The position numbers were made by a program, and so were the translations under genes. From a phage: a DNA stretch of 64,000 bases. Below, piece after piece: positions 2,983 through 45,557 of the stretch (the first letter of the stretch is position 1; each line of letters begins with the position of its first letter). The DNA lies in assembly GCA_009015555.1 (NCBI GenBank), contig GCA_009015555.1_3613.1; one strand, written 5' to 3'. The notes under the pieces are model-generated. The model searched no databases. It had not been told where the DNA came from and saw nothing but the letters and a program-made list of their open reading frames with translations.

Positions 2983-5900
2983 ATGGCACAATATGAAGAT
3001 AAGGTCGTGGAAGTTCTGGTGACTCTCCCGGAACCGTCTGCGAGCACCTCTGGTGGTTCTGGTGCGCCTTTCACGGGCATCGAAACCCAAGACACCGTAT
3101 CCACCACACTGATTGGTGATGGTACTCAATCCTCCCCTCTGCAAGCAAACATCAACATCTCCCGTCGTTCAGGAAACCGCCTCCAAGTGGTGAGCACCTC
3201 CAGTGAGCAGGGTCTGTATGTTGCTGGCTCCGACACCAAGGTGTCTGCTAAGGATGGGAACACCGTAACTTACATCTCCGCCCAAGATGCGGCTAACGCT
3301 GGCAACCCGGCCCTGGAAGGTGTATACTCTGATCCGGTGAACGTGTCAACCACGTCACCGAAGAAGACTCTGGAAATTAAGGCTGATCCTACCGGGAAAG
3401 CCAAGACCCAAATCGACGTGATCGTTGATCCAGATTCCATGAACGCCCTGAAGGTAGGCACTGCTGGCCTGAGCGTTCCTGTTTCTGTGGCTCAAGACAA
3501 CACTCTGGAAATCCGCCAGGGTGCTCTGTACGTCCGCCCGCAAGAGACTAAAATCTCCCAAGACCCAAACAACAAGATTCAAGTCAAGTCTGACGGGATT
3601 TACGTTGACACTGTAAAAGGTGATAAAGGTGATACCGGGGCAACTGGCCCGGAAGGCCCTCAAGGCCCACAGGGAGACCCGGGTCCTCAAGGTCCGCAAG
3701 GCCCGCAGGGCGATAAGGGTGATAAAGGTGACACCGGGGACGTAGGACCAGCGGGGGCAACTGGCCCGGCAGGGGCACAGGGTGCTCGTGGCCCAGAAGG
3801 TCCGAAAGGCCCGGCTGGTATTGGTATCAACGTCATCGATCAGCTTGACGAAGTTTCTCAGCTTCCGGCTGTTGCGGAAATGGAACTGGGCGACACTTAC
3901 GTTATTGGACAGAATTTCTGGACCGTTGTCAACGAAAACAACGTGAAGCAGTGGAAGGACATCGGTAACTTCGCGGGGCCTGAAGGTCTGTCTGCTTATG
4001 AAGTTGCAGAAGGCGCGGGCTTCGTTGGTACTGTTGATGAGTGGCTGGAATCCCTGAAAGGGGCTGACGGTATCGGTCTGCAAATTCTTGGTTCCTTCCC
4101 TGACCCGTCCTATCTGCCTGATGAAGGTAACAAGCCGGGTGACTGCTACATCATCCAAGACATGATGTATGTGTGGACAGGTGATGAAGATGGGTGGCAG
4201 ACTGTAGGTCAGATTGGCCCAGAGGGTAAATCTGCGTATCAGGTATGGCTGGCTAACGGTCACACCGGATCTCAGGTTGACTTTCTGAACTCCCTGGTTG
4301 GCCCACAAGGACCGAAAGGTGATAAAGGCGACAAAGGTGATACGGGTGCTGACGGTACTAACGCCAACGCCATCAACCTCTTGGGTAAAGTCGCAGACGA
4401 AGCGAGCCTCCCGGCTGGCGCGGATGCAGGCGATGCCTACCTGATCGGAACTAGCGTTTGGGTCTCCACTGGCAATGACAACTGGGAAAACCTCGGTGCC
4501 TTCCAAGGCCCTAAAGGTGATCAGGGGGATGTCGGCCCTGCTGGCCCGAAAGGCGACAAGGGGGACGCAGGTGACGTAGGCAAAGACAACTACGCATTGG
4601 CGGTAGAGAACGGGTTCCAAGGTTCCCTGAGCGACTACCTGGCATCTCTCAAAGGTGCGAAGGGCGACACTGGCCCGACTGGTCCGCGTGGTCTTACTGG
4701 TCCGCAGGGTGTGAAAGGTGACGCAGGGGAAGGTCTTGCGATCCTCGGATCAAAAGCTGATCCTTCAGAACTACCTTCCAATCCAGTAACTGGTGATGCG
4801 TGGCTGATCGGAGAAGACCTGTACATCTTCAACGGCACTGCTTGGGAGAATGCAGGCCCTGTCCGTGGTCCGAAAGGTGACACCGGAGCCACTGGCCCGG
4901 CTGGAGCTAAGGGTGACAAGGGTGACCAAGGCGAGAAAGGCGACAAGGGTGACCAAGGTGATGTCGGCCCGGCTGGCCCGGAAGGTCCGCAGGGGACTGG
5001 TCTGACGCCGAAAGGTTCTGTTCCTACAGTAGCAGATCTTCCTGACCAAGACAACACCAAAGGCGACTTCTGGGCTGTAGAGGAAGATGGCAATGGTTAC
5101 GCTTGGGATGGGTTGCAGTGGGTTGTTACTGGCCTGACTCGCGGCCCGCAAGGCGAGAAAGGCGACAAGGGCGACAAAGGGGATAAAGGTGATCCGGGGG
5201 ATACTGGTGCCACAGGCGCAGGTGTTATTCCGAAGGGAACTGTAACCTCTGCTGCGACCCTGCCTCCTACCGGGAACACCGTCGGTGATTACTACGTCAC
5301 TGAGGATACTGGGACCGGATACTCTTGGAACGGGACAACCTGGGTTGACTTGGGAGTTGTGCGTGGACCGCAAGGACCGCAGGGCGACAAAGGTGATACC
5401 GGAGACCAAGGTCCGCAAGGTGTGAAAGGTGACACTGGTGCTACAGGCCCTCAAGGCCCGCAAGGTGACATCGGCCCGGGCGTTGAGATCATGGGTAAAC
5501 TCAACAGCACCTCAGAACTGCCTTCAACCGGGCAACTGGGTCAGGGTTACCTGATTGACGGCGACTTCTGGGGATGGACTGGCTCTGCCTACGAAAACCT
5601 TGGACGTATCCAAGGCCCGGTTGGTCCTACTGGTCCTACTGGTGACCCAGGCCCTACGGGTCCGCAGGGTGTCAAGGGTGATAAGGGTGATCAAGGTTCC
5701 TTGTGGATCGTGTTCGACCATGACCCGGGTCCTGCTGATGGTCGTGTAGGTGACTACTTCCTTAACTCCTCAACGTTGCAGTTCTTCCGCAAGACGAACG
5801 CAACCACTTGGGCACCGATGGGTTACATGGGTGGCGGTAACGTTTACGATTCCCCGAAAGACGGCAAGCAGTACGCTCGTATCGACGGGGATTGGGAACT

Positions 5901-6264
5901 GGTCGAAGTTCTGGAAGCGCCTCAAGACAACGGCTACTACGTCCGTGCGAACGGTGCGTGGCAGAAACTGGATCGCTACGACCTGCGTGTCATGTCCGCA
6001 ACTGGCGCACTGGATGCTTCTGTATCCAACGTGTTCACCGTTGACGGAACCACGTCTAAGGCAATCACCATCTCCAACCTGCCAGCGGGTCGTGCGATGA
6101 CTGTGGTTGTTAAGTTCCTCGGTAAAGGTGGGTCCATGACTTGGCCTTCTCCGATGGCATGGTCTAACGGCACCCAGCCAGCACTTGGTACTACCCGTAC
6201 CATCCTGACGTTCTTCTGGGACGGCACGGACCTGACTGGTGTTCAGGCAATGACTGTAGACTAA
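2983..6264 (+). CDS. collagen-like fibre protein (multiple G-X-Y triple-helix blocks alternating with about 45-aa fibre repeats, C-terminal globular domain)
   Basis: Start moved to ATG at 2983 (RBS GGAG; N-terminus [11 protein letters not shown] resembles sheath-like gene at 11084); many [19 protein letters not shown]-type repeats; repeated LP..GD.Y/W..G..W....W.N.G modules. Confidence 0.8.
3604..5700 (+). repeat. tandem collagen G-X-Y coding repeats (ggtgataaaggtgacaccgg-type units)
   Basis: Repeated GGT GAY AAR GGY GAY ACY GG and CCN CAR GGN units visible across the gene. Confidence 0.7.
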
Positions 6265-6270
6265 TACCCC

Positions 6271-6290
6271 AAGGGGGCTTCGGCCCCCTT
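6271..6290 (+). promoter_or_regulatory. GC hairpin with UUCG tetraloop (AAGGGGGC-UUCG-GCCCCCUU), no U-tract
   Basis: Perfect 8-bp stem immediately after collagen gene stop; followed by RBS of next gene rather than a T-run. Confidence 0.4.
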
Positions 6291-6305
6291 CACAAGGAGA
6301 TTCAA

Positions 6306-6956
6306 ATGGCTGTAGATCCTACCAGCAAGGTTTATGCTTGGACACCGATGATTCGTTTGTCCGACATGAAATATCCTGTCTATCTTAGCGACTTCCTCAA
6401 AGAACATACTAACGTAAGTATTGGTTCTTACGTTTGGGAAAAGGACATGCGAGACCTGTGGGGTTATTGCATGGTTCATGATTCTGAAGTTCCTATTGGT
6501 GATGTGGTCACCGAAGGAAAACCGGAACTAAACGAAGAAGATGACCTGTGGTACAAGACTTGGGTTGCTCGTGATTTCTCCCCAGAAGAGATCGCAGAGA
6601 ACTTGGCCCGCGCCAAGGAAGATTATCGTACCCGTGCGTATCAGCAATATACCTCTGACCTTCAGTCGGGTGTGGCTGTTGACGGCGACGTTTTCTCTGT
6701 TGAACCACGAGAACTCCTGAACCTTGAACTGTCCAAAGCGTTTGCGTTTGCAAACTCTGAATCGGATGTTCTGATTCGCAAAGCTGATTACACAGTTTTG
6801 ACTCTACCGTCTGCGGATGCTGTTGTCAAGATTGATGAAATCCTGGCTGCAACTGCCAAGGTCCACCAGAACCTGTTGGCATACGTAAAAACTGTGTATG
6901 ACACCGAAGTCATCACAGACATCCCTGAAGTTCCTCAAACTTTCGTAGGAGAATAA
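6306..6956 (+). CDS. hypothetical protein (possible fibre assembly factor, by position)
   Basis: 216-aa ORF with RBS AAGGAGA; between two collagen-like genes. Confidence 0.55.
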   Translation: MAVDPTSKVYAWTPMIRLSDMKYPVYLSDFLKEHTNVSIGSYVWEKDMRDLWGYCMVHDSEVPIGDVVTEGKPELNEEDDLWYKTWVARDFSPEEIAENLARAKEDYRTRAYQQYTSDLQSGVAVDGDVFSVEPRELLNLELSKAFAFANSESDVLIRKADYTVLTLPSADAVVKIDEILAATAKVHQNLLAYVKTVYDTEVITDIPEVPQTFVGE

Positions 6957-6957
6957 C

Positions 6958-7269
6958 ATGGCAGCAATTGGCGGAGCATCCCTTGGTGTCCTGACTGGTT
7001 ACCAGATCATGGACCAAGCAACAGGAGAGAGCAAGACCATCTCTGAACTTTTTGCAGGTGGTGGCGGTACTCCCGGCCCGAAAGGTGACAAAGGTGATAC
7101 GGGAGACACTGGACCAGCAGGTCCAGCAGGCCCGGCGGGGGCAGCAGGTGCAGACGGTGTTGGAATCGCTGACATCGCAGCGGCTCGCTCAGGCGATACT
7201 GTAACTCTAACCTTCACCATGTCTGACTCTACAACGAAGACTGCATCTTTCGACCTTCCAGCCGCATAA
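6958..7269 (+). CDS. small collagen-like protein
   Basis: 103 aa; [34 protein letters not shown] block; RBS GGAGAA. Confidence 0.65.
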   Translation: MAAIGGASLGVLTGYQIMDQATGESKTISELFAGGGGTPGPKGDKGDTGDTGPAGPAGPAGAAGADGVGIADIAAARSGDTVTLTFTMSDSTTKTASFDLPAA

Positions 7270-7274
7270 TTAAT

Positions 7275-7296
7275 CCGCCCTTAGGGGCGGTTTTTG
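7275..7296 (+). terminator. rho-independent terminator
   Basis: CCGCCC-TTAG-GGGCGG stem followed by TTTTT. Confidence 0.55.
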
Positions 7297-7312
7297 TACA
7301 TAAGGAGACTGT

Positions 7313-8683
7313 ATGGGAACAATGAGGGGTATCACAGGGGAGCAGAACGGTGTATACTTCGGGTATGCACTTTACGATCTCGTTAACGAAAAACTTATCC
7401 CCTTTGACCAAATTGGCGAGGGGGGATCTTCTGTACCCGGCCCACAGGGTCCTCAAGGGGAGAAGGGGGATAAGGGAGACCCCGGTCCTCAAGGACCTCA
7501 AGGTGTCCAAGGAGAGCCGGGCAATCCTGGTGAACCAGGCCCTCAAGGGGAACAAGGCCCTCAGGGCGAGGCAGGGGAAATTGGTCCTCAAGGACCTCAG
7601 GGACCAGTAGGACCAACAGGCCCTCAGGGCGAGAAAGGGGAGAGGGGTGAACCAGGCCCTCAAGGTCCTGAAGGCCCTGCTGGCCCGCAAGGGGAACAGG
7701 GACCCGCCGGGGCAACAGGCCCCGTTGGACCTTCCGGTGCGACAGGTCTTGTATGGAGAGGGAACTATGATGATTCAGTCTCCTACGACGTTAACGATGC
7801 AGTTGGGTATCAGGGTGCCACATATTTCTCTACTCAGCCATCCACAGGTATCCCACCGGAATCTACTGGTACAAGGGTTAACGACCACTGGGCACTAATG
7901 GCCTCAGAAGGTGCGCCGGGACCAGTAGGTCCAGCAGGACCAACAGGCCCGCAGGGTTTGCAAGGACCAGTAGGACCCGCAGGGCCTTCCGGTGCGACAG
8001 GTCCTGCCGGACCCGCCGGACCACAAGGAGAGCAAGGCCCTCAAGGGCTACAAGGACCACAAGGTCAGCGAGGTATTCAAGGTGTTCCGGGTGAAAAAGG
8101 GGAAAAGGGAGATCAAGGACCAGTAGGTCCGGCAGGCCCTGCTGGCCCGCAAGGGGAACAGGGACCTCAGGGGGAGACTGGCCCTAAGGGAGATAAGGGT
8201 GACAATGCCCTCCCGACCATTTCTGGGATTTATGCCTCCCCGATCAACAAAACGAACTCTTGGATTCAACTCCCCGGTAACAACTTGGGGAATGTTCGTC
8301 TTATTCTCTCTGCAAACAACAATGTCTCTCAGACCCGAGTTGGTTTCTCCGCAGGAACTTCGTCAGTGGCGAAGAGGATCGGATTCTCTTATGCACTAAC
8401 AACAACTTACACGGACGTAAATCGTATTAAGACCGGGAGAACCGGCCCCACCTCGATCTCAAATACAGTAGTTTATCCGTCGGACTCTACTATCAACGTG
8501 GGGTTCGGCGACAAGGTAGTCCTTGTTGTTTTTTGCCACGACACCCTTGAAGCATGGGAAGTGACAGTGGCAGGGGTTGCCCAAAAAACTGCTGTGGGCG
8601 ACACAAGTGGGCGTTTGGCTGTACATGCAGTACAGATCTCCGGGGACAGTACGTTACTCACAGGTAATGTCTACAACCCATAA
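7313..8683 (+). CDS. collagen-like protein (two long G-X-Y regions, C-terminal globular domain)
   Basis: 456 aa; RBS AAGGAG; long [19 protein letters not shown] repeats. Confidence 0.75.
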
Positions 8684-38400: not shown

Positions 38401-38427
38401 AATAAAAAGGCCACCCGAAGGTGGCCT
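38401..38427 (-). terminator. rho-independent terminator
   Basis: GGCCACC-TTCG-GGTGGCC stem followed by TTTTTATT on minus strand. Confidence 0.55.
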
Positions 38428-38432
38428 TAATC

Positions 38433-38831
38433 TTATTCAGCGTCCAGCGCCGCCAGTTCCGCACGAAGCTCTTCTGGGGTCTTGGACTGAACTTCACGCT
38501 GCTCGGCTTCCGCCAGGGCGTTGATCAGTTTCTGACGCTGCGCCGCCTTGTTCTGCGCTGCAACGCGCTCTGCCGCTTCGGTCTCTTTCACGCCGATCAC
38601 GTGCTTAACGATCTCCAGCTTCAGTTCCAGATCTTTACGCACGGCGTTTTTGTTCTGGGACAGGAAGGACTCTTCCTTCTCTGCATTGATCTGGCGGTTG
38701 ATACCCTTCGCCACTTCATCCAGTTGGGTCAGAGACAGATCGAACAGGTCTTCAGTCGCCAGTGACGCGAAGCGTGGGGAAGCGAAACGGATTTTTGCAC
38801 GTGCTGCGATTTCAAAGATGTTGGTAGACAT
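38433..38831 (-). CDS. hypothetical coiled-coil protein
   Basis: 132-aa ORF with RBS GAGGAGAAA; heptad-rich C-terminal half. Confidence 0.55.
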   Translation of the reverse strand: MSTNIFEIAARAKIRFASPRFASLATEDLFDLSLTQLDEVAKGINRQINAEKEESFLSQNKNAVRKDLELKLEIVKHVIGVKETEAAERVAAQNKAAQRQKLINALAEAEQREVQSKTPEELRAELAALDAE

Positions 38832-38863: not shown

Positions 38864-38892
38864 ATTATGGGGCCTTTCGGCCCCGCTGTCAA
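38864..38892 (-). promoter_or_regulatory. sigma70-like promoter (TTGACA, 17-nt spacer containing GC hairpin, CATAAT)
   Basis: -35 abuts stop of upstream gene; spacer is GCGGGGCCGAAAGGCCC. Confidence 0.5.
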
Positions 38893-40902
38893 TTAAAAAA
38901 TCACTTTCAGTGTGCGGGTGAATGCACCAGTCACTTTCACCGTCAGTTCGTTGCGCTGGGTATCAGAGAAGCCCAGGCCAGACAGTTGTTCGTCAGAGGC
39001 CGGAACCTTCATCTTACCTGCCAGATGCTCGAACACTTTACGGTGCTCGTTCAGTTCGTTACGCAGATACTCGTTGTAGAAACCGCGAGTAGTGCCCGGC
39101 TGTTTTGCGCCTTCCAGCATGAAGAAGTAATGCTTGTTACCAATCGCCTGACCGTCCCAGTGGTTCGGAGAGTTCATGATTACAGACACCTTCTGGAACT
39201 GCTCGGTAGCCATTCCCCACACATCTTTAGACTGCTTGCTGTGTGGCAGTGATTCAATGACCTCCACGCCACCTTTACGGGTGTAACGGAAGGTGATTAC
39301 ATCAACATCGCTACCGCGAGACATCGCCTGTGGACGACTAAACTCCAGCGTTGTATTGCCATGCTCCAGTTCAAGAGTGAAGCCAACACGGTCACGAGAA
39401 CGAACATTGTACTGGTTCACCCACACCTTATAAATACCTTCTTCGATCTGACTCTCGCGTTCGAAGATGATGTTCTCAACAGGGTTCAGATCATCATGCT
39501 TATCCATGCCGTTCATATCCAGGTCCAGATACGCACCGCCACCACGACGATTACCGTAATACAGGTGCTCACCGCGAGGGGTACGCATATGCAGGTCAAG
39601 GTCATCGCCATTGTTCCACGCCAGAGAGATACGCAGGGCACCCTCCACTTTACCACCCGCTGCTTTCACACGCTCTTTAATAGAGTCAGTAACTTCACCA
39701 TTGTAAGACCAGGAGAAGTTGTTGTCCCACTTCAGCATGTTCGGAGCGTCCGGATATACCGGGGCCACCAGAGACACCAGGTTGCCAGTGTGGCGGTTCT
39801 CAACCAGCGCTTCGATGCTTGTTGCCGTCGGCAGAACTTCACGGATGAATTTCTCGATGGAGATCTCTTCCACGTTAGCCGGGCCTTTAACAGGCTTCTT
39901 CGCCCCTTTCAGCAGGTCACCGAACACATCTGTGGCCTTCTGGGTGTTGCGGTCAGCAAACAGCACGTTGTTAACGGTCAGGTCTTCCAGTACAGCGTAG
40001 CGGCGAGGCAGAGAGTCCATCAGACCCAGTTGCTGAACCTTCTCCTGTGCTTTCTTGATCATCGCTTCGGTAACCAGCGCAGTCGGGCGCTTGTAGTTTG
40101 CCGGGGCCATAACCTTTTCCCAGCGCTTAACCGCAGATTCGATATCCATACCGCCGGACAGATCTTCCAGCAGGTTGCCGATCGCAGTATTACGGAACTT
40201 ACCGCGCTCACCCAGCTTCAGGCCGTTTGTCCACACGAACGCTTCTTTACCTGCGGTATCCAGAGCATCGTATTTGTTCTTCAGGTCGAGGAACAGGTTG
40301 ACGCTGGCGATCTGCTCGTTACCACGGTACAGGGAACCCTGTGCGTTCAGTTCGATGATCGTTTCTGCTGCGTCGGCAGTCAGTTCAATCAGGCTACGCT
40401 CCAGAACCTGCACGTTGCTACGAGAGCGGCTCAGGGCAGTTGCGATATCTGAGTTTGGCTTCACGAAGTTCTGCGGCAGAACGGCGTGGAAGTGGTTATA
40501 CGTCACGACCTGATCGTTTTCCAGAACGTTGCTTTGTGCCGTACCCACCTTAGTGGTGAAGTGCAGGAACTCGTCAGCGATCGGTGCTGCATGGATCAGC
40601 TTGGACAGCGAGTCAACCACCGCCTGGTAGTAACCCGGCACCTTGATGTCCCAGATGGAGACACGCTTACCGTCAACGAAGGTCACCACACGACCAACAT
40701 CACGGATGAATTGCTTACAGCAGTTGCAGTCGTACTCACGGCGCTCACGGAACATCAGGTTGGTGCCCGCCGGGAATGAATCGAGATAATGGTTCCACAC
40801 GACGTCTTTGTCAGCAGCCACTTCAAACAGGCCAGTTTTAGCCATCTTGGTCAGTTGTTTCTGGATAGCCAGTACGAAGTTATGATAGTTGTTAGTGCTC
40901 AT
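38893..40902 (-). CDS. large conserved hypothetical protein (669 aa)
   Basis: Long ORF with RBS GAGGAG; bounded by a promoter-terminator unit downstream; no catalytic motif recognised. Confidence 0.6.
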   Translation of the reverse strand: MSTNNYHNFVLAIQKQLTKMAKTGLFEVAADKDVVWNHYLDSFPAGTNLMFRERREYDCNCCKQFIRDVGRVVTFVDGKRVSIWDIKVPGYYQAVVDSLSKLIHAAPIADEFLHFTTKVGTAQSNVLENDQVVTYNHFHAVLPQNFVKPNSDIATALSRSRSNVQVLERSLIELTADAAETIIELNAQGSLYRGNEQIASVNLFLDLKNKYDALDTAGKEAFVWTNGLKLGERGKFRNTAIGNLLEDLSGGMDIESAVKRWEKVMAPANYKRPTALVTEAMIKKAQEKVQQLGLMDSLPRRYAVLEDLTVNNVLFADRNTQKATDVFGDLLKGAKKPVKGPANVEEISIEKFIREVLPTATSIEALVENRHTGNLVSLVAPVYPDAPNMLKWDNNFSWSYNGEVTDSIKERVKAAGGKVEGALRISLAWNNGDDLDLHMRTPRGEHLYYGNRRGGGAYLDLDMNGMDKHDDLNPVENIIFERESQIEEGIYKVWVNQYNVRSRDRVGFTLELEHGNTTLEFSRPQAMSRGSDVDVITFRYTRKGGVEVIESLPHSKQSKDVWGMATEQFQKVSVIMNSPNHWDGQAIGNKHYFFMLEGAKQPGTTRGFYNEYLRNELNEHRKVFEHLAGKMKVPASDEQLSGLGFSDTQRNELTVKVTGAFTRTLKVIF

Positions 40903-40935: not shown

Positions 40936-41220
40936 TTACTTAACTGTTACGAAGTTTACACCAGCTTGCTCAAGGATGTCAATACGCAATTGACGTTCTT
41001 TTCCACGGTAAATGTTTTTCAGGGCTTGACGCTGCTTTTCGAGGCTCTCGTACTCTCCTTCTGGGAAGATACGGATTACCGAATCAGCAGAGTAAATTCC
41101 AACACCCACGGCGTTGATCCCGCCCGTTTTTGTTAGCTTACCCTTTGTCACCAGGTAATAAGGATACAGGTCATACCCCACAATCGCCGTGACTGTCGGC
41201 AGCAGATCATCAGGATTCAT
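40936..41220 (-). CDS. hypothetical protein
   Basis: Track ORF 40936..41244 trimmed to ATG 41220. Confidence 0.45.
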   Translation of the reverse strand: MNPDDLLPTVTAIVGYDLYPYYLVTKGKLTKTGGINAVGVGIYSADSVIRIFPEGEYESLEKQRQALKNIYRGKERQLRIDILEQAGVNFVTVK

Positions 41221-42104: not shown

Positions 42105-42131
42105 TAATAAAAAACCGCCCCGAAGGGCGGT
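42105..42131 (-). terminator. rho-independent terminator
   Basis: ACCGCCC-TTCG-GGGCGGT stem followed by TTTTTATTA on minus strand. Confidence 0.55.
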
Positions 42132-42757
42132 TATCTTTTCTTGGTTTCAATCTTGATTGAGCGCATCAAGCACCGGGAATGATACAGAGCTTGGTCTTGA
42201 GAACCGCCGATCATGAGATTAAAACTTGTCCCGTCTGCAAGATCTGGGATGGCTTTGTTGTTTATCGTTGGCGATCCATCAACAGTTACAGTGAGGCTCT
42301 TGTTAATAGACTCGAAGATTATCTCGTGATAAACACCTTTTGTCACGGCGGGGCCTGCATTGACCCTGCTGGAATTATACCACCAGTCAAGGTATCCGTT
42401 ACTCAGCATGTTGGCGATCCAAGTGCCAGACCCGTTTCCTTGAATAGATCTCCCCACAAATATCATTGGGTTTGTTGCCGCTGCCTTAACCTTCAGATTC
42501 ATGGTGATCTTCCAGTCATTGTTTAGCAGCTTGTCTGGGGTGGTCCCTCCGCTCAATGCCCCATCTCCAACAAAATCCATCGCTGGCAGGCCCTCGTCGA
42601 GAACCGTCGCGGATGTTCCGGCGGTCCTGTTGAACGTTATCCCGCGATCAGTGAATCCTGAGAATGTGCCCAAGGGATACTTGGTGAAGTCCAACTCGAA
42701 CCAAGTGCTGTACTTTTTCGGATCTCCGCCCCCCGGCAGTACCAACATCTCTTGCAT
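42131..42757 (-). CDS. N-tag family paralog B: ConA/LamG-like jelly-roll protein (N-terminus MQEMLVLPGGG)
   Basis: 208-aa ORF with RBS GGGGG; LamG-like pattern; shared N-terminal motif. Confidence 0.55.
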   Translation of the reverse strand: MQEMLVLPGGGDPKKYSTWFELDFTKYPLGTFSGFTDRGITFNRTAGTSATVLDEGLPAMDFVGDGALSGGTTPDKLLNNDWKITMNLKVKAAATNPMIFVGRSIQGNGSGTWIANMLSNGYLDWWYNSSRVNAGPAVTKGVYHEIIFESINKSLTVTVDGSPTINNKAIPDLADGTSFNLMIGGSQDQALYHSRCLMRSIKIETKKR

Positions 42758-42831: not shown

Positions 42832-45468
42832 TTAGTGACAATCTCCCCAGCTTGTGCCCGTCAGGTATTCACCTGTGATGTGGACTGGAGATTTCATCAT
42901 CTTAGCCGCCTGCTCCACGCACTTAACGACCATCTGCCCGACCGGGCAATGAATAATCGTGTACACGCCGTTCTCGTCCGGATCACACTTGAACTTACCT
43001 TCTTTCACACAGTGACCATCCAGAACCAGACCTTTCGCCAGGCACTGCTCAACAAAGGCTTTTGCGGTTGCCTCGTCGTTGAACTTCCATTCTTTCTTGA
43101 ACTTGTGCGGCACTTCAAGCTGGTATTCATCGTGGTAGTAGATGATACGGCGGACGCCTTCATCATACCAGCCACGCTTAACCAACTGCCAGTGCAGCAG
43201 GATACCGACCAGATCGAACAGTGCAGCACCGCCGTTCTGCTGGTATGCGTTCAGCAAGGAGTGTTTGGAGCGGGTGTAGATCTTACGACCATCGAGGCCG
43301 TAGATAAAGCGTTTCCCGGTCAACTCCCAGAACTTCTCAAGTGCTTCTTTACGACCTTTCAGACCGATGTTGCTATCCCAGAATGCGTCGATTACCGCCT
43401 GAGCCTTGTCGAGGGAAATACCCAACATGGAGGCGATCTTCGCGGCCTGGGCACCGTACATGATGCCGTATGTCACACCCTTACCTTCACCACGGGAAAC
43501 CTTCTTACCCGCCGCTTTGGTATACGCTTCAGCGTTTCGGCTGTGGGCGTCACCTGATTCCATGATCCGGAGATATGCCCCGCCGTCGAACTCGTAGGCA
43601 CCCCATGCTGCGATCATACCTTCGAGGTTTGAGCCGTCGATACCAACCTGATATTTCCCTTCAGATGCCCGGAATAAGCCACGCATCTCTTTACCCAGTA
43701 AAACCTTCTCGTCTGGTTTAGGGACGTTAGCCACGATTGTGTGCTTACGTCGCCCGGTGTTGGTGATCCCAGAATAACGCGCCGGGAGTTTACCGTCAAT
43801 ACGCAGTCGTGGGTGGTTCAGCCATCCTGTGTCAACCTTGTCTTCCTTGAGCGGGTCAAGTACAGAACGACGGTTACGCAGAGACAGCCACTTCACGATC
43901 TGCTTTGCCATATGACCGTCAACCTTCTCCAAGTTCGGACACAGGCCGCTCATATCTTTCAACTGCGGAGACGTAGGCAGGCCACGGGCCTTACGTCGCA
44001 ACAGCTTGTACATCTTCTCTTTGTCCTGCCACGCCTTCGGGGTGATGCCGAGGTATTCCAGAATAAGATCCCGGTATTCAACTTGGTCCAACTGCTCAAT
44101 GTACTCACGGACAAGCCCATCGACCTCGTTATCGGGGCGTTGTTTCTTAAACTGGTCCTTCGTCACATCCTTACTGCGCCACAGGGTTGGCTTCCAGCCT
44201 GCATCACGGATAAGGAACTTCTTCACGTCATCTTGGTTACCGATACGCATCGGAATCATAATGTCCGGCATGGTTTGGTTCTTCAGATCCAACATTGCCC
44301 GTGCCATGTCCTCTGGTGAGAGAGGGATCAGGGTCGTTTGCTTGTTGTTCTGGTCCCGGATAAACTGCGGCATCGCTGCCTCATCCTCGACACCATGCTC
44401 ATTGCAATACTTGATTGCTGCCGCCGTCAGGCTACCATCGGCCTTGAAAGACTTCGCCGGGGGACCCTTAAAGTCGAGTGCCTCCCAGTTGACATTATAC
44501 CCCAACTTCTCCAGCCACTTCCACCCAGTCCCGGACAAAGATCCATCGCCCTTGAACGGCTTAGAAGGGAAGGTCGGTTGTGCTGACTTCGCCATCTCTT
44601 TCTTCGGGAGATGGGGTTCAACATCTCCCTCGATCTCTCGCATCATTTGATCGATACGGTCACGAAGTTTAAGTGCCGCCTCTTCGTCGAAAGATACGCC
44701 CTGAATCTCCTGCTCAATCATCAGGTAGTCTGTCAGCATACCACGACGCATGGCATTCTTCCAGTTGATCAGCTTGTACTTCTTGGCGTCCTTATCCTTA
44801 TCTTCATCCTTGTACATGAAGCGTTTGTCATCTACCAGCTTGCCGTCGCAGGCGATCTCCTCCATGAGGGCCGTCCACACCATTTCGTTGATGATAACGT
44901 CTTCGATGATACGATCACAATACTTCCACAGCGGCAGGCCACGCCAGTCTTCGATTGCCACTTTCTGGTTGGCAACACGCATACCCCACGCCTCTAAGCC
45001 GTGAGGGCCGACAGGTTTCATCTTCCCGGTGACCGGGTTCTTTACCATCTCCGGACACCCACGAGGAAGCGGTCGGTCTGGATAAAGAGTTCGAGACATT
45101 GACAGAGTGTCGAACAGGTTAACCTGCTTGCCGTTCAGGGTGCCCATGCACTTAGGGTCGCCGAACATATCATACTGTGTTCCCAACATCTTTTTAAACA
45201 GACGAAGGTCGTAGCCGAACAGGTTGTGGATCGCGATGGATTTAGGCTCCGTCTTGAACCAATCGTTCAACTCCTCAAAGGTACGAATTTTGAAATTCTT
45301 GCCCTTCGATTGGATAAATTTCAACGCCTGATCGTACCCTTCCCGGTTGGGGTCGAGGAAGATATTCCAGTTATCGACCTTATACTCCTTGAACAGGATC
45401 ACGTGAAGCTGGTCTACTTCTTCGAGCAGACCATTGGCTTCAGCATCCCCTACAAACAACCCTTTCAT
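42832..45468 (-). CDS. DNA polymerase, family A, with 3'-5' exonuclease domain
   Basis: Track ORF 42832..45495 starts at GTG; ATG at 45468 has AAGGAG; N-terminal exonuclease motif VGDAEANGL; C-terminal KxxxYG..YG region and HDE motif typical of family A polymerases. Confidence 0.85.
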   Translation of the reverse strand: MKGLFVGDAEANGLLEEVDQLHVILFKEYKVDNWNIFLDPNREGYDQALKFIQSKGKNFKIRTFEELNDWFKTEPKSIAIHNLFGYDLRLFKKMLGTQYDMFGDPKCMGTLNGKQVNLFDTLSMSRTLYPDRPLPRGCPEMVKNPVTGKMKPVGPHGLEAWGMRVANQKVAIEDWRGLPLWKYCDRIIEDVIINEMVWTALMEEIACDGKLVDDKRFMYKDEDKDKDAKKYKLINWKNAMRRGMLTDYLMIEQEIQGVSFDEEAALKLRDRIDQMMREIEGDVEPHLPKKEMAKSAQPTFPSKPFKGDGSLSGTGWKWLEKLGYNVNWEALDFKGPPAKSFKADGSLTAAAIKYCNEHGVEDEAAMPQFIRDQNNKQTTLIPLSPEDMARAMLDLKNQTMPDIMIPMRIGNQDDVKKFLIRDAGWKPTLWRSKDVTKDQFKKQRPDNEVDGLVREYIEQLDQVEYRDLILEYLGITPKAWQDKEKMYKLLRRKARGLPTSPQLKDMSGLCPNLEKVDGHMAKQIVKWLSLRNRRSVLDPLKEDKVDTGWLNHPRLRIDGKLPARYSGITNTGRRKHTIVANVPKPDEKVLLGKEMRGLFRASEGKYQVGIDGSNLEGMIAAWGAYEFDGGAYLRIMESGDAHSRNAEAYTKAAGKKVSRGEGKGVTYGIMYGAQAAKIASMLGISLDKAQAVIDAFWDSNIGLKGRKEALEKFWELTGKRFIYGLDGRKIYTRSKHSLLNAYQQNGGAALFDLVGILLHWQLVKRGWYDEGVRRIIYYHDEYQLEVPHKFKKEWKFNDEATAKAFVEQCLAKGLVLDGHCVKEGKFKCDPDENGVYTIIHCPVGQMVVKCVEQAAKMMKSPVHITGEYLTGTSWGDCH

Positions 45469-45557
45469 ACTCTCTCCTTTTTGGCATACCTCCACTCAGG
45501 ATAGCCCAATGCCTCGTAAAGATCAACCTATCAATACCCGTCCTTGGGTGAATAATC

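What the first reader, a model, noticed from the sequence alone, without database searches (positions are those of the whole stretch)
38893..40902. Large unassigned 669-aa early protein with its own promoter-terminator context
It is the largest unassigned early gene, sits next to the polymerase, and is followed by a consensus-like promoter and terminator. I recognised no catalytic motif.
Basis: seen in the sequence. Interest (0 to 1): 0.45.

Follow-up and report, generated by a model that had tools for sequence, protein, structure and literature searches.

The report
Widespread two-gene phage cassette, function unknown
The 669-aa gene is real and belongs to a very large, uncharacterised phage protein family (DUF8224) whose main body resembles no solved structure and which, in this long form, always travels with a small partner gene, so it is a good lead to a new phage function, although nothing here shows what it does.

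Summary
The ORF (38893-40902, minus strand, 669 aa) is real. The window is a Cronobacter phage CR3-like Certrevirus, and the gene is 98.8% identical to CR3_055. It is a full-length member of PHROG 1735 and Pfam DUF8224. Both are catalogued without a function, and no paper I could search mentions them.

1. It is not a lone gene. The 132-aa gene directly downstream (38433-38831, PHROG 2018) accompanies it in 116 of 116 sources examined: virulent phages of Gram-negative and Gram-positive hosts, phage-plasmids, a conjugative element and actinobacterial chromosomes. In those chromosomes a 2.5-kb promoter-plus-two-genes block lies at unrelated sites.
2. Residues 416-556 are a DUF2135-family beta-sandwich with a TerD-like fold. 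A shorter form of the family lacks both this insert and the partner.

The "serine protease" and "RNA polymerase" labels on orthologues have no support. The consensus promoter after the gene drives the partner, and the "terminator" is a hairpin inside that promoter's spacer.

Function is unresolved. My best guess, at low confidence, is an accessory enzyme of the phage DNA/nucleotide programme with a cation-binding regulatory add-on.

The parts
38893..40902 (-). CDS, 669 aa: long-form DUF8224 / PHROG 1735 protein (orthologue of CR3_055)
   Evidence: ORF list. 98.8% nt identity to CR3. PHROG 1735 over its full length, E 4.5e-289. PF26675 = DUF8224 on homologues up to 99% identical.
39943..40902 (-). 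N module, residues 1-320: alpha/beta subdomain (1-145) plus helical subdomain (146-320). Carries family-wide invariant R54, C59-x-x-C62, H137, R193, Y270, R272, R300, R301.
39877..39942 (-). Low-confidence, poorly conserved linker, residues 321-342
   Evidence: pLDDT below 50.
39658..39876 (-). M module, residues 343-415: small alpha/beta unit (invariant W392, N394). In short-form relatives it joins directly to the C module.
   Evidence: Model. HMM coordinates of short forms: 3-401 then 558-639.
39235..39657 (-). Inserted beta-sandwich, residues 416-556: DUF2135-family domain with TerD-like fold. Invariant acidic cluster D434, D436, D460, D462, E476, N477, with D433 and N464 nearly invariant.
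38896..39234 (-). C module, residues 557-669: basic alpha/beta unit (family median pI 9.35). Invariant P579, E611, E625 shared with short forms.
38433..38831 (-). Partner gene, 132 aa, PHROG 2018: composition rich in helix-forming residues, mildly acidic, no Pfam family. Obligate companion of the long form.
   Evidence: PHROG 2018, E 1.5e-41. Homologous in SFP10, CcrSwift and BCP78. Present in 85/85 viral and annotated loci, 23/23 genome loci with room, and 116/116 sources overall; absent from the short-form loci. No Pfam or name.
38864..38892 (-). Sigma70-like promoter TTGACA-N17-CATAAT between the two genes, facing the partner. Its spacer contains a GGGGCC-GAAA-GGCCCC hairpin (38869-38884).
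   Evidence: Conserved in Certrevirus relatives, with a compensatory stem change in L010. RNA fold -15.6 kcal/mol, z -2.0.
40953..40982 (-). Promoter-like site upstream of the large gene (TTGACA-N18-TAAACT, 10 of 12), inside the 3' end of the preceding ORF
   Evidence: Consensus match only; not tested further.
38407..38428 (-). First terminator-like hairpin (9 bp, T-rich tail) downstream of the pair; probable end of the two-gene unit

Best explanation
Shown: the ORF encodes a long-form member of the phage family DUF8224 and is the first gene of a two-gene cassette; the second gene is the 132-aa PHROG 2018 protein. The family has a roughly 535-aa core (N + M + C modules) that also exists alone as a short form. 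In the long form a DUF2135-family beta-sandwich with a TerD-like fold is inserted between M and C, and the partner gene is always present.

Inferred: the core is an enzyme or ligand-binding machine of the non-structural phage programme (DNA replication, recombination, nucleotide and nucleic-acid repair). It probably binds a phosphate-bearing ligand, either a nucleotide or a nucleic-acid end. The binding site would be the residues invariant across both forms: R54, R193, Y270, R272, R300, R301, E611 and E625, plus a likely metal site made of C59-x-x-C62 and H137.

Inferred: the inserted beta-sandwich, with its invariant acidic cluster, binds a divalent cation (Ca2+ by analogy with the TerD fold). 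Together with the partner, whose composition suggests a helical protein, it regulates or localises the core.

Inferred: the cassette is accessory rather than essential and moves horizontally as a self-contained unit.
For: - Family and size.
- Two architectures: HMM coordinates of short forms run 3-401 then 558-639.
- Partner linked to the long form only.
- Beta-sandwich identity. Its acidic invariants. The domain is acidic (median charge -4.9).
- Sequence identity is unusually high for a phage accessory gene: 40-47% between phages of enterobacteria, Caulobacter, Bacillus and cyanobacteria and about 40% to actinobacterial copies. That suggests an enzyme with a universal substrate (inference).
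- Residues invariant across long and short forms are mostly Arg, Tyr, His, Cys and Glu.
- Neighbourhoods are consistently non-structural. Near this gene or its relatives: PolA; clamp, clamp loader, RegA and MazG; NrdJ and ligase; RtcB and NAD salvage; RNR, PNK and ligase; PhoH and ThyX; TK, SSB, RecA, ThyA, Sak, UvrD, dUTPase and Tmk; PD-(D/E)XK exonuclease, SbcC-like ATPase and methylases.
- Accessory: the sister phage CB7 lacks the segment.
- Functional in bacteria: dN/dS 0.31 and 0.17.
Against: - No catalytic motif, cofactor site or substrate has been identified, so 'enzyme' is inferred only from conservation.
- Being near DNA-metabolism genes is expected for almost any non-structural phage gene, so that association is weak.
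- One family member lacks the C-x-x-C motif, so that site may be structural.
- Ca2+ binding is by analogy only. The domain has no sequence relationship to TerD and lacks TerD's GDN(R/L)TGEGDGDDE motif.
- The co-evolution test did not single out the beta-sandwich as the partner's contact. The partner tracks the N subdomains slightly better (r about 0.70 against 0.59).
- Neither protein is strongly basic overall, which does not favour bulk nucleic-acid binding.
Confidence: 0.35

Rival explanations
1. Counter-defence or host-takeover effector. The pair is made early by invading DNA elements (phages, phage-plasmids, a conjugative element) to neutralise a host immunity pathway or repair its damage. 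It might act on a signalling nucleotide, a depleted metabolite or a cleaved RNA. This overlaps the best explanation, but it predicts a host-genotype-dependent phenotype.
For: - Early sigma70-type promoter setting.
- Patchy, dispensable distribution within a genus, with truncated remnants in Dickeya phages.
- Carried by phages and also found beside a TraG/TrwB coupling protein in Flavonifractor.
- Short forms lie beside known damage-repair or counter-defence genes: RtcB and NadM/Nampt, PNK plus ligase.
- Thg1-like genes in 3 loci.
Against: - Known anti-defence proteins are usually small and fast-evolving; this one is 669 aa and 40-47% identical across phyla-level host ranges.
- Intact chromosomal copies under purifying selection sit in ordinary actinobacterial neighbourhoods, which is hard to reconcile with a purely anti-host role.
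- No link to any specific defence system was found.
Confidence: 0.25
2. Defence, superinfection-exclusion or addiction (toxin-antitoxin-like) cassette that benefits whichever replicon carries it.
For: - A self-contained promoter-plus-two-genes block with sharp ends sits at unrelated chromosomal sites in ten Micromonosporaceae.
- Low dS (about 0.25) suggests recent spread.
- A few flanks hold McrBC, an SLFN-type helicase or RHS genes.
- The fold resembles TerD, and the ter operon is classically linked to phage inhibition (my own knowledge).
Against: - No PADLOC match for either protein or for short forms.
- Rare in cellular genomes (25 loci from 185,579 species in a pattern-limited scan, several probably phage contigs binned into MAGs) but common in virulent phages (555 phage records).
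- Most flanks are housekeeping genes.
- A 669-aa toxin 40-47% identical across phyla would be atypical.
Confidence: 0.1
3. Self-mobile selfish element: the large protein is a new kind of recombinase or homing enzyme that moves its own cassette.
For: Sharp cassette boundaries with unrelated flanks, and no integrase or transposase among the commonest flank families.
Against: - No terminal inverted or direct repeats at the ends.
- Always a single copy per record.
- Fixed syntenic position within phage genera.
- No nuclease or recombinase motif or fold.
Confidence: 0.04
4. It is what GenBank records call it: a serine protease (PcCB7V) or a DNA-directed RNA polymerase (LPST94).
Against: - No Peptidase_S8 or RNA-polymerase family in Pfam or NCBIfam.
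- None of the subtilisin, chymotrypsin or Clp/Lon-type sequence patterns scanned is present.
- The subtilase matches rank below TerD and are best explained by their non-catalytic beta-jelly-roll/P-domains (inference, supported by weak P_proprotein hits).
Confidence: 0.02
5. A virion-packaged protein injected with the DNA.
For: In a Kuttervirus virion preparation, 'putative DNA-directed RNA polymerase' gp179 and gp180 gave 3 and 1 spectra (PMC10892097). By gene order these may be the pair, but I did not verify that mapping.
Against: - The counts are at contamination level, as the authors themselves warn.
- The gene lies in the early/replication region behind sigma70-type promoters, not in the structural module.
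Confidence: 0.03

Closest known systems
Pfam DUF8224 (PF26675) / PHROG 1735, long form
   Same: Full-length membership: PHROG 1735 at E 4.5e-289 over residues 4-669. All close and distant homologues carry PF26675. Same ~670-aa architecture in 9,552 cluster representatives.
   Different: Nothing differs; it is a typical member. The family itself has no known function and no paper in the searchable library names it.
Short-form DUF8224 (~535 aa; e.g. PaMx74_08, B1VFA_018, Burkholderia and Priestia prophage copies)
   Same: N, M and C modules are homologous (E 1e-36 to 1e-60). They share invariant R54, C59, C62, H137, R193, Y270, R272, R300, R301, W392, N394, E611 and E625.
   Different: Short forms lack residues ~402-557 (the beta-sandwich) and have no PHROG 2018 partner nearby. 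They are commoner in temperate prophages.
DUF2135 domain of YfaP-like proteins (alpha-2-macroglobulin operon)
   Same: Residues 416-503 align to a RefSeq 'DUF2135 domain-containing protein' at 98.4% hhalign probability, 43% identity, sharing LRxxLSW...DLDLH...P.GEH..YGN...GG.LD.D. DUF2135 is also the most recurrent weak Pfam hit (7 of 60 members).
   Different: Here the domain is an insert in a cytoplasmic phage protein, not part of the yfaS operon. The Pfam DUF2135 model itself is not reached (E 0.3). DUF2135 also has no known function.
TerD (tellurite-resistance, Ca2+-binding beta-sandwich; PDB 2kxt, 2qz7, 2qng)
   Different: No sequence-profile relationship (hhalign 0.4%; no PF02342 hit). 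TerD's GDN(R/L)TGEGDGDDE Ca2+ motif is absent. A TerB gene follows the pair in only one contig.

Membership tests
DUF8224 (PF26675) / PHROG 1735 | Significant full-length match to the family profile | tested here: met
   PHROG 1735 E 4.5e-289, residues 4-669 onto profile 2-673. PF26675 is precomputed on homologues up to 99% identical and named DUF8224. My local Pfam copy predates the model.
DUF8224 long-form cassette (defined here) | PHROG 2018 partner gene adjacent on the same strand | tested here: met
   Window 38433-38831, PHROG 2018 E 1.5e-41. The same arrangement holds in 84 of 85 viral and annotated loci plus one inverted order, and in 23/23 genome loci.
DUF2135 | Homology of the beta-sandwich to a bona fide DUF2135 domain | tested here: met
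   hhalign of alignment A7 against the Citrobacter WP_311393506 DUF2135 protein: 98.4%, E 5.5e-15. tblastn H108, 41% identity.
DUF2135 | Pfam PF09906 model reached at its gathering score | tested here: not met
   E 0.3, 11.6 bits against a cut-off of 22 for the window protein. Best of 60 relatives E 0.0039.
TerD family (PF02342) | TerD-type beta-sandwich fold | tested here: met
TerD family (PF02342) | Sequence or profile homology to TerD | tested here: not met
   hhalign probability 0.4% against the verified 2kxt sequence. No PF02342 hit even at E up to 10.
TerD family (PF02342) | Ca2+ binding through the acidic GDN(R/L)TGEGDGDDE motif | not testable with these tools
   The motif is absent. 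An analogous invariant acidic cluster exists (D434, D436, D460, D462, E476), but metal binding needs experiment or model coordinates.
Subtilisin-like serine protease (label in PcCB7V) | Asp/His/Ser catalytic triad motifs and a Peptidase_S8 domain | tested here: not met
DNA-directed RNA polymerase (label in LPST94) | Match to any RNA-polymerase family or fold | tested here: not met
Known anti-phage defence systems (PADLOC-DB 2.0) | Match of either protein to a defence-system model | tested here: not met
   No family at E up to 1 for the large protein. None at E up to 0.1 for partners, bacterial copies and short forms.
Toxin-antitoxin module | One product toxic and neutralised by the other | not testable with these tools
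   Only the two-gene cassette shape is suggestive. No sequence evidence.

The most novel reading that the evidence does not exclude
The DUF8224 core is a previously unrecognised protein fold carrying a new biochemical activity in phage DNA/nucleotide metabolism or counter-defence. In the long form this activity is gated by a cation-binding DUF2135/TerD-fold insert together with an obligate small partner. The promoter-plus-two-genes unit spreads horizontally as a self-contained cassette among phages, conjugative elements and bacterial chromosomes.
Probability: 0.4. Interest if true: 0.75.

Novelty: categorically new. Interest (0 to 1): 0.55.

Why it matters
DUF8224 is one of the larger blocks of phage dark matter. 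It has 9,552 cluster representatives at 50% identity and appears in 555 of 50,697 deposited phage genomes. Those include whole genera used in biocontrol and therapy work, such as Kuttervirus, Certrevirus and Bacillus Bastillevirinae.

The protein is unusually well conserved for an accessory phage gene. It can be modelled with confidence, and yet two thirds of it matches no solved structure.

This analysis turns a lone hypothetical protein into a defined, testable unit:
- a two-gene cassette;
- two architectural classes, which amount to a natural domain-deletion experiment;
- a short list of invariant residues to mutate;
- a probable metal-binding insert;
- bacterial copies under purifying selection that could be studied without a phage.

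If the core proves to be a new enzyme, it would add a function to the standard phage replication or counter-defence toolkit and allow thousands of genes to be annotated.

The novelty rating reflects distance from any characterised system. It is not a demonstrated new mechanism, and the family itself is already catalogued.

Tried and rejected
- Sequence libraries gave nothing informative. Tried: Pfam on the whole protein, on four separate domains and on 60 family members, NCBIfam, PADLOC twice, and PDB by sequence and by profile.
- TerD membership was rejected by hhalign despite the fold match.
- 'Serine protease' and 'RNA polymerase' labels were rejected.
- A third conserved gene was sought by clustering all flanking ORFs of 85 loci. 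Only antisense shadow ORFs recurred. TerB, MoxR/DUF2201, PhoH, Thg1, the BCP78 ATPase and SFP_0121 are each lineage-specific.
- A divergent partner beside short forms was sought with a broadened HMM at E up to 50. None was found.
- Guilt by association in ten actinobacterial insertion sites gave heterogeneous, mostly housekeeping flanks.
- Terminal repeats at the cassette ends: none seen.
- A mirror-tree test for which domain the partner tracks was not discriminating.
- Domain charge analysis gave no strongly basic surface apart from the C module.
- Literature searches for PF26675, DUF8224, phrog_1735, DUF2135, five protein accessions and TerD-like phage proteins found nothing relevant.
- The CB7 virion proteome is uninformative, because CB7 lacks the gene.
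Full report
**1. The observation**

An ATG-to-TAA open reading frame of 669 codons lies at exactly 38893-40902 on the minus strand. A GAGGAG ribosome-binding site sits 8 nt upstream of its start. The window is a Certrevirus of the Vequintavirinae: the gene is 98.8% identical in DNA to CR3_055 of Cronobacter phage CR3, which is annotated as a hypothetical protein.

The gene is not adjacent to the DNA polymerase. That gene (42832-45495, Pfam DNA_pol_A) is 1.9 kb upstream, with about six small ORFs between. On the minus-strand early/middle arm only the polymerase and a 690-aa ORF are longer. I infer the 690-aa ORF is the primase/helicase by synteny with CB7_73.

The sequence immediately after the stop codon is TTGACA-N17-CATAAT, an 11-of-12 match at 38892-38864. 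This promoter faces the next gene. The first terminator-like site is at 38428-38407, after the next gene. The promoter-plus-hairpin arrangement is conserved in Certrevirus relatives, and one of them (L010) carries a compensatory stem change. A sigma70-like early/middle promoter consensus has been described for this genus (PMC7344957).

**2. Family**

- The local Pfam-A copy, NCBIfam, PADLOC and PDB sequence and profile searches gave nothing.
- PHROGs places the protein, over its full length, in PHROG 1735, which has no known function (E 4.5e-289).
- Every homologue in the large protein collection carries the newer Pfam entry PF26675, which is named DUF8224.
- The family is very large: more than 4,500 hits in the word-indexed search and 9,552 cluster representatives at 50% identity. 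Of those, 2,246 score below 1e-30, and the best 150 listed are almost all 650-700 aa and match over the full length.
- In deposited phage genomes it occurs in 555 records. These include Kuttervirus and other Ackermannviridae, Vequintavirinae, Caulobacter phiCbK-like siphoviruses, Bacillus Bastillevirinae, and Vibrio, Cellulophaga and cyanobacterial phages. Identity to the window protein is typically 40-55% across this range, falling to about 30% in the most distant full-length members.
- No paper in the searchable library mentions PF26675, DUF8224, phrog_1735 or five orthologue accessions.

**3. Anatomy**

An AlphaFold2 model built from a 48-sequence alignment has mean pLDDT 84. It resolves into five parts:

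| Residues | Part |
|---|---|
| 1-320 | N module: alpha/beta subdomain plus helical subdomain |
| 321-342 | Disordered linker |
| 343-415 | M: small alpha/beta unit |
| 416-556 | Beta-sandwich |
| 557-669 | C: alpha/beta unit |

*The beta-sandwich.*
- The sandwich is not a TerD-family member by sequence. hhalign against the verified TerD sequence gives 0.4% probability.
- It is a true homologue of the DUF2135 domain of a YfaP-like protein encoded in an alpha-2-macroglobulin operon: 98.4% probability, E 5.5e-15.
- It carries an invariant acidic cluster: D434, D436, D460, D462, E476 and N477.

**4. Two forms and a partner**

The gene immediately downstream (38433-38831, 132 aa, PHROG 2018) is homologous to the gene in the same position in Salmonella phage SFP10, Caulobacter phage CcrSwift and Bacillus phage BCP78.
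- With an HMM of this partner, 85 of 85 viral and annotated loci contain it. In 84 it lies directly downstream on the same strand, often overlapping or a few bases away. In one it lies directly upstream.
- All 23 cellular-genome loci with room downstream also have it.
- No third gene recurs.
- The partner has no Pfam family and no name in any source. Its composition is rich in helix-forming residues and it is mildly acidic.

A shorter form of DUF8224, about 535 aa, consists of N and M joined directly to C. It is itself a large family (2,280 hits). This form lacks the beta-sandwich, and no partner was detectable in any short-form locus examined. The insert and the partner therefore go together.

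A distance-matrix co-evolution test did not identify which module the partner tracks.

Residues conserved across both forms are R54, C59, C62, G70, H137, R193, G242, Y270, R272, R300, R301, W392, N394, P579, E611 and E625.

**5. Distribution and mobility**

- *Accessory.* The sister phage CB7 lacks the whole CR3_044-057 segment, pair included. Dickeya Limestonevirus phages retain only an ~80-residue N-terminal fragment.
- *Plasmids.* Most plasmid hits are large (roughly 117-360 kb) non-mobilizable replicons, probably phage-plasmids.
- *Conjugative element.* In Flavonifractor the pair lies next to a TraG/TrwB coupling protein.
- *Chromosomes.* In ten Micromonosporaceae genomes the only DNA shared between loci is a ~2.5-kb block at 84-93% identity.
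  - It begins about 70 nt upstream of the start codon, taking in a TAGGAT box and a Shine-Dalgarno sequence, and ends within a few bases of the partner's stop codon.
  - The flanks are unrelated. They are mostly housekeeping genes, with occasional McrBC, SLFN-type helicase or RHS genes.
  - Eight of ten large ORFs and all ten partners are intact. dN/dS is 0.31 and 0.17, and dS is about 0.25. That indicates recent spread and function in bacteria.
  - No terminal repeats were seen.

**6. Neighbourhoods**

Both forms lie in the non-structural part of phage genomes. Genes found nearby:
- PolA in the window;
- clamp, clamp loader, RegA and MazG;
- PhoH, MoxR/DUF2201 and ThyX;
- NrdJ and ligase;
- RtcB and NAD salvage;
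- RNR, PNK and ligase;
- TK, SSB, RecA, ThyA, Sak, UvrD, dUTPase and Tmk;
- a PD-(D/E)XK exonuclease, an SbcC-like ATPase and DNA methylases.

This excludes a structural or lysis role. It is otherwise weak evidence, because most non-structural phage genes share such neighbours.

**7. Interpretation**

*Shown:* family membership, the two architectures, the obligate partner, the identity of the insert, the absence of any solved structural relative for residues 1-415, and the accessory, cassette-like distribution.

*Inferred:*
- The core is an enzyme or ligand-binding machine acting on a phosphate-bearing nucleotide or nucleic-acid substrate. This rests on unusually high cross-phylum conservation and on the Arg/Tyr/His/Glu invariants with a Cys-x-x-Cys...His site.
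- The acidic beta-sandwich binds a divalent cation and, with the partner, regulates or localises the core.

I give this 0.35. A counter-defence effector role (0.25) is the main rival and is not mutually exclusive with it. Defence/exclusion/addiction (0.10), self-mobility (0.04), virion packaging (0.03) and the two database labels (0.02) follow.

**8. Verdict**

The gene is a typical member of a catalogued, wholly uncharacterised family. The new results here are the two-gene cassette, the insert-partner linkage, the DUF2135/TerD-fold assignment, the lack of any solved structural relative for the core, and cassette-level transfer into bacterial chromosomes. Interest is moderate to high as a lead (0.55). 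No mechanism has been demonstrated.

Noticed in passing
window 38864-38892 (minus strand): A near-consensus sigma70 promoter whose 17-nt spacer is itself a 6-bp GC hairpin with a GAAA loop. It is conserved across Certrevirus relatives, with a compensatory G:C to C:G swap in L010. A different hairpin occupies the same intergenic spot in a Klebsiella-phage-like contig (L014). It could set the ratio of the two gene products.
   Followed up: partly
window 42131-42757 (minus strand): A 208-aa Laminin_G_3/ConA-like protein (Pfam E 1.7e-6; PHROG label 'major tail protein') sits among early genes beside the DNA polymerase. Phage CB7 has a mass-spectrometry-confirmed 'structural protein' (CB7_55) beside its polymerase, though on the opposite side of the gene. 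Homology between the two was not tested.
   Followed up: no
window 42832-45495 (minus strand): The family A DNA polymerase is a single uninterrupted 887-aa ORF here. In the sister phage CB7 it is split into several pieces by HNH-containing introns.
   Followed up: no
L096-L102, L105, L106, L110 (Actinoplanes, Paractinoplanes, Micromonospora), about locus positions 4930-7440: A 2.5-kb promoter-plus-two-genes block at 84-93% nt identity lies at unrelated chromosomal sites, with no terminal repeats and no nearby mobility genes detected. dS of about 0.25 suggests recent inter-genus spread. How it moves is unexplained.
   Followed up: partly
L121 8755-9195: A TerB-domain gene directly follows the DUF8224 pair in one metagenomic phage contig. 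This is intriguing given the TerD-like fold of the insert, but it was found in only 1 of about 120 loci.
   Followed up: yes
Hits H82 and H83 (Dickeya phages Ds23CZ and Kamild): Limestonevirus phages keep only an ~80-residue N-terminal fragment of DUF8224 at 53% identity (compare PHROG 21434, 93 aa). This looks like a decayed or truncated copy.
   Followed up: no
L125 2314-3399 (Hymenobacter canadensis plasmid): A 361-aa hypothetical protein has a C-terminal domain 41% identical to the DUF2135-like insert. It lies in a three-gene operon next to an integrase and an AbiEii toxin gene, so the insert domain occurs in other uncharacterised mobile contexts.
   Followed up: no
L131 4492-6507 (Salmonella phage LPST94) and L002 5001-7004 (Pectobacterium phage PcCB7V): Public records label orthologues 'DNA-directed RNA polymerase' and 'serine protease'. 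Neither label has any support in sequence, motif or fold searches, and both are likely to propagate by annotation transfer.
   Followed up: yes
L116-L119 2539-5932: In one environmental phage lineage the pair follows a DUF2201/vWA-like gene, a MoxR-type AAA_5 ATPase and PhoH. All are widespread phage accessory genes of unclear role. The arrangement is lineage-specific.
   Followed up: yes
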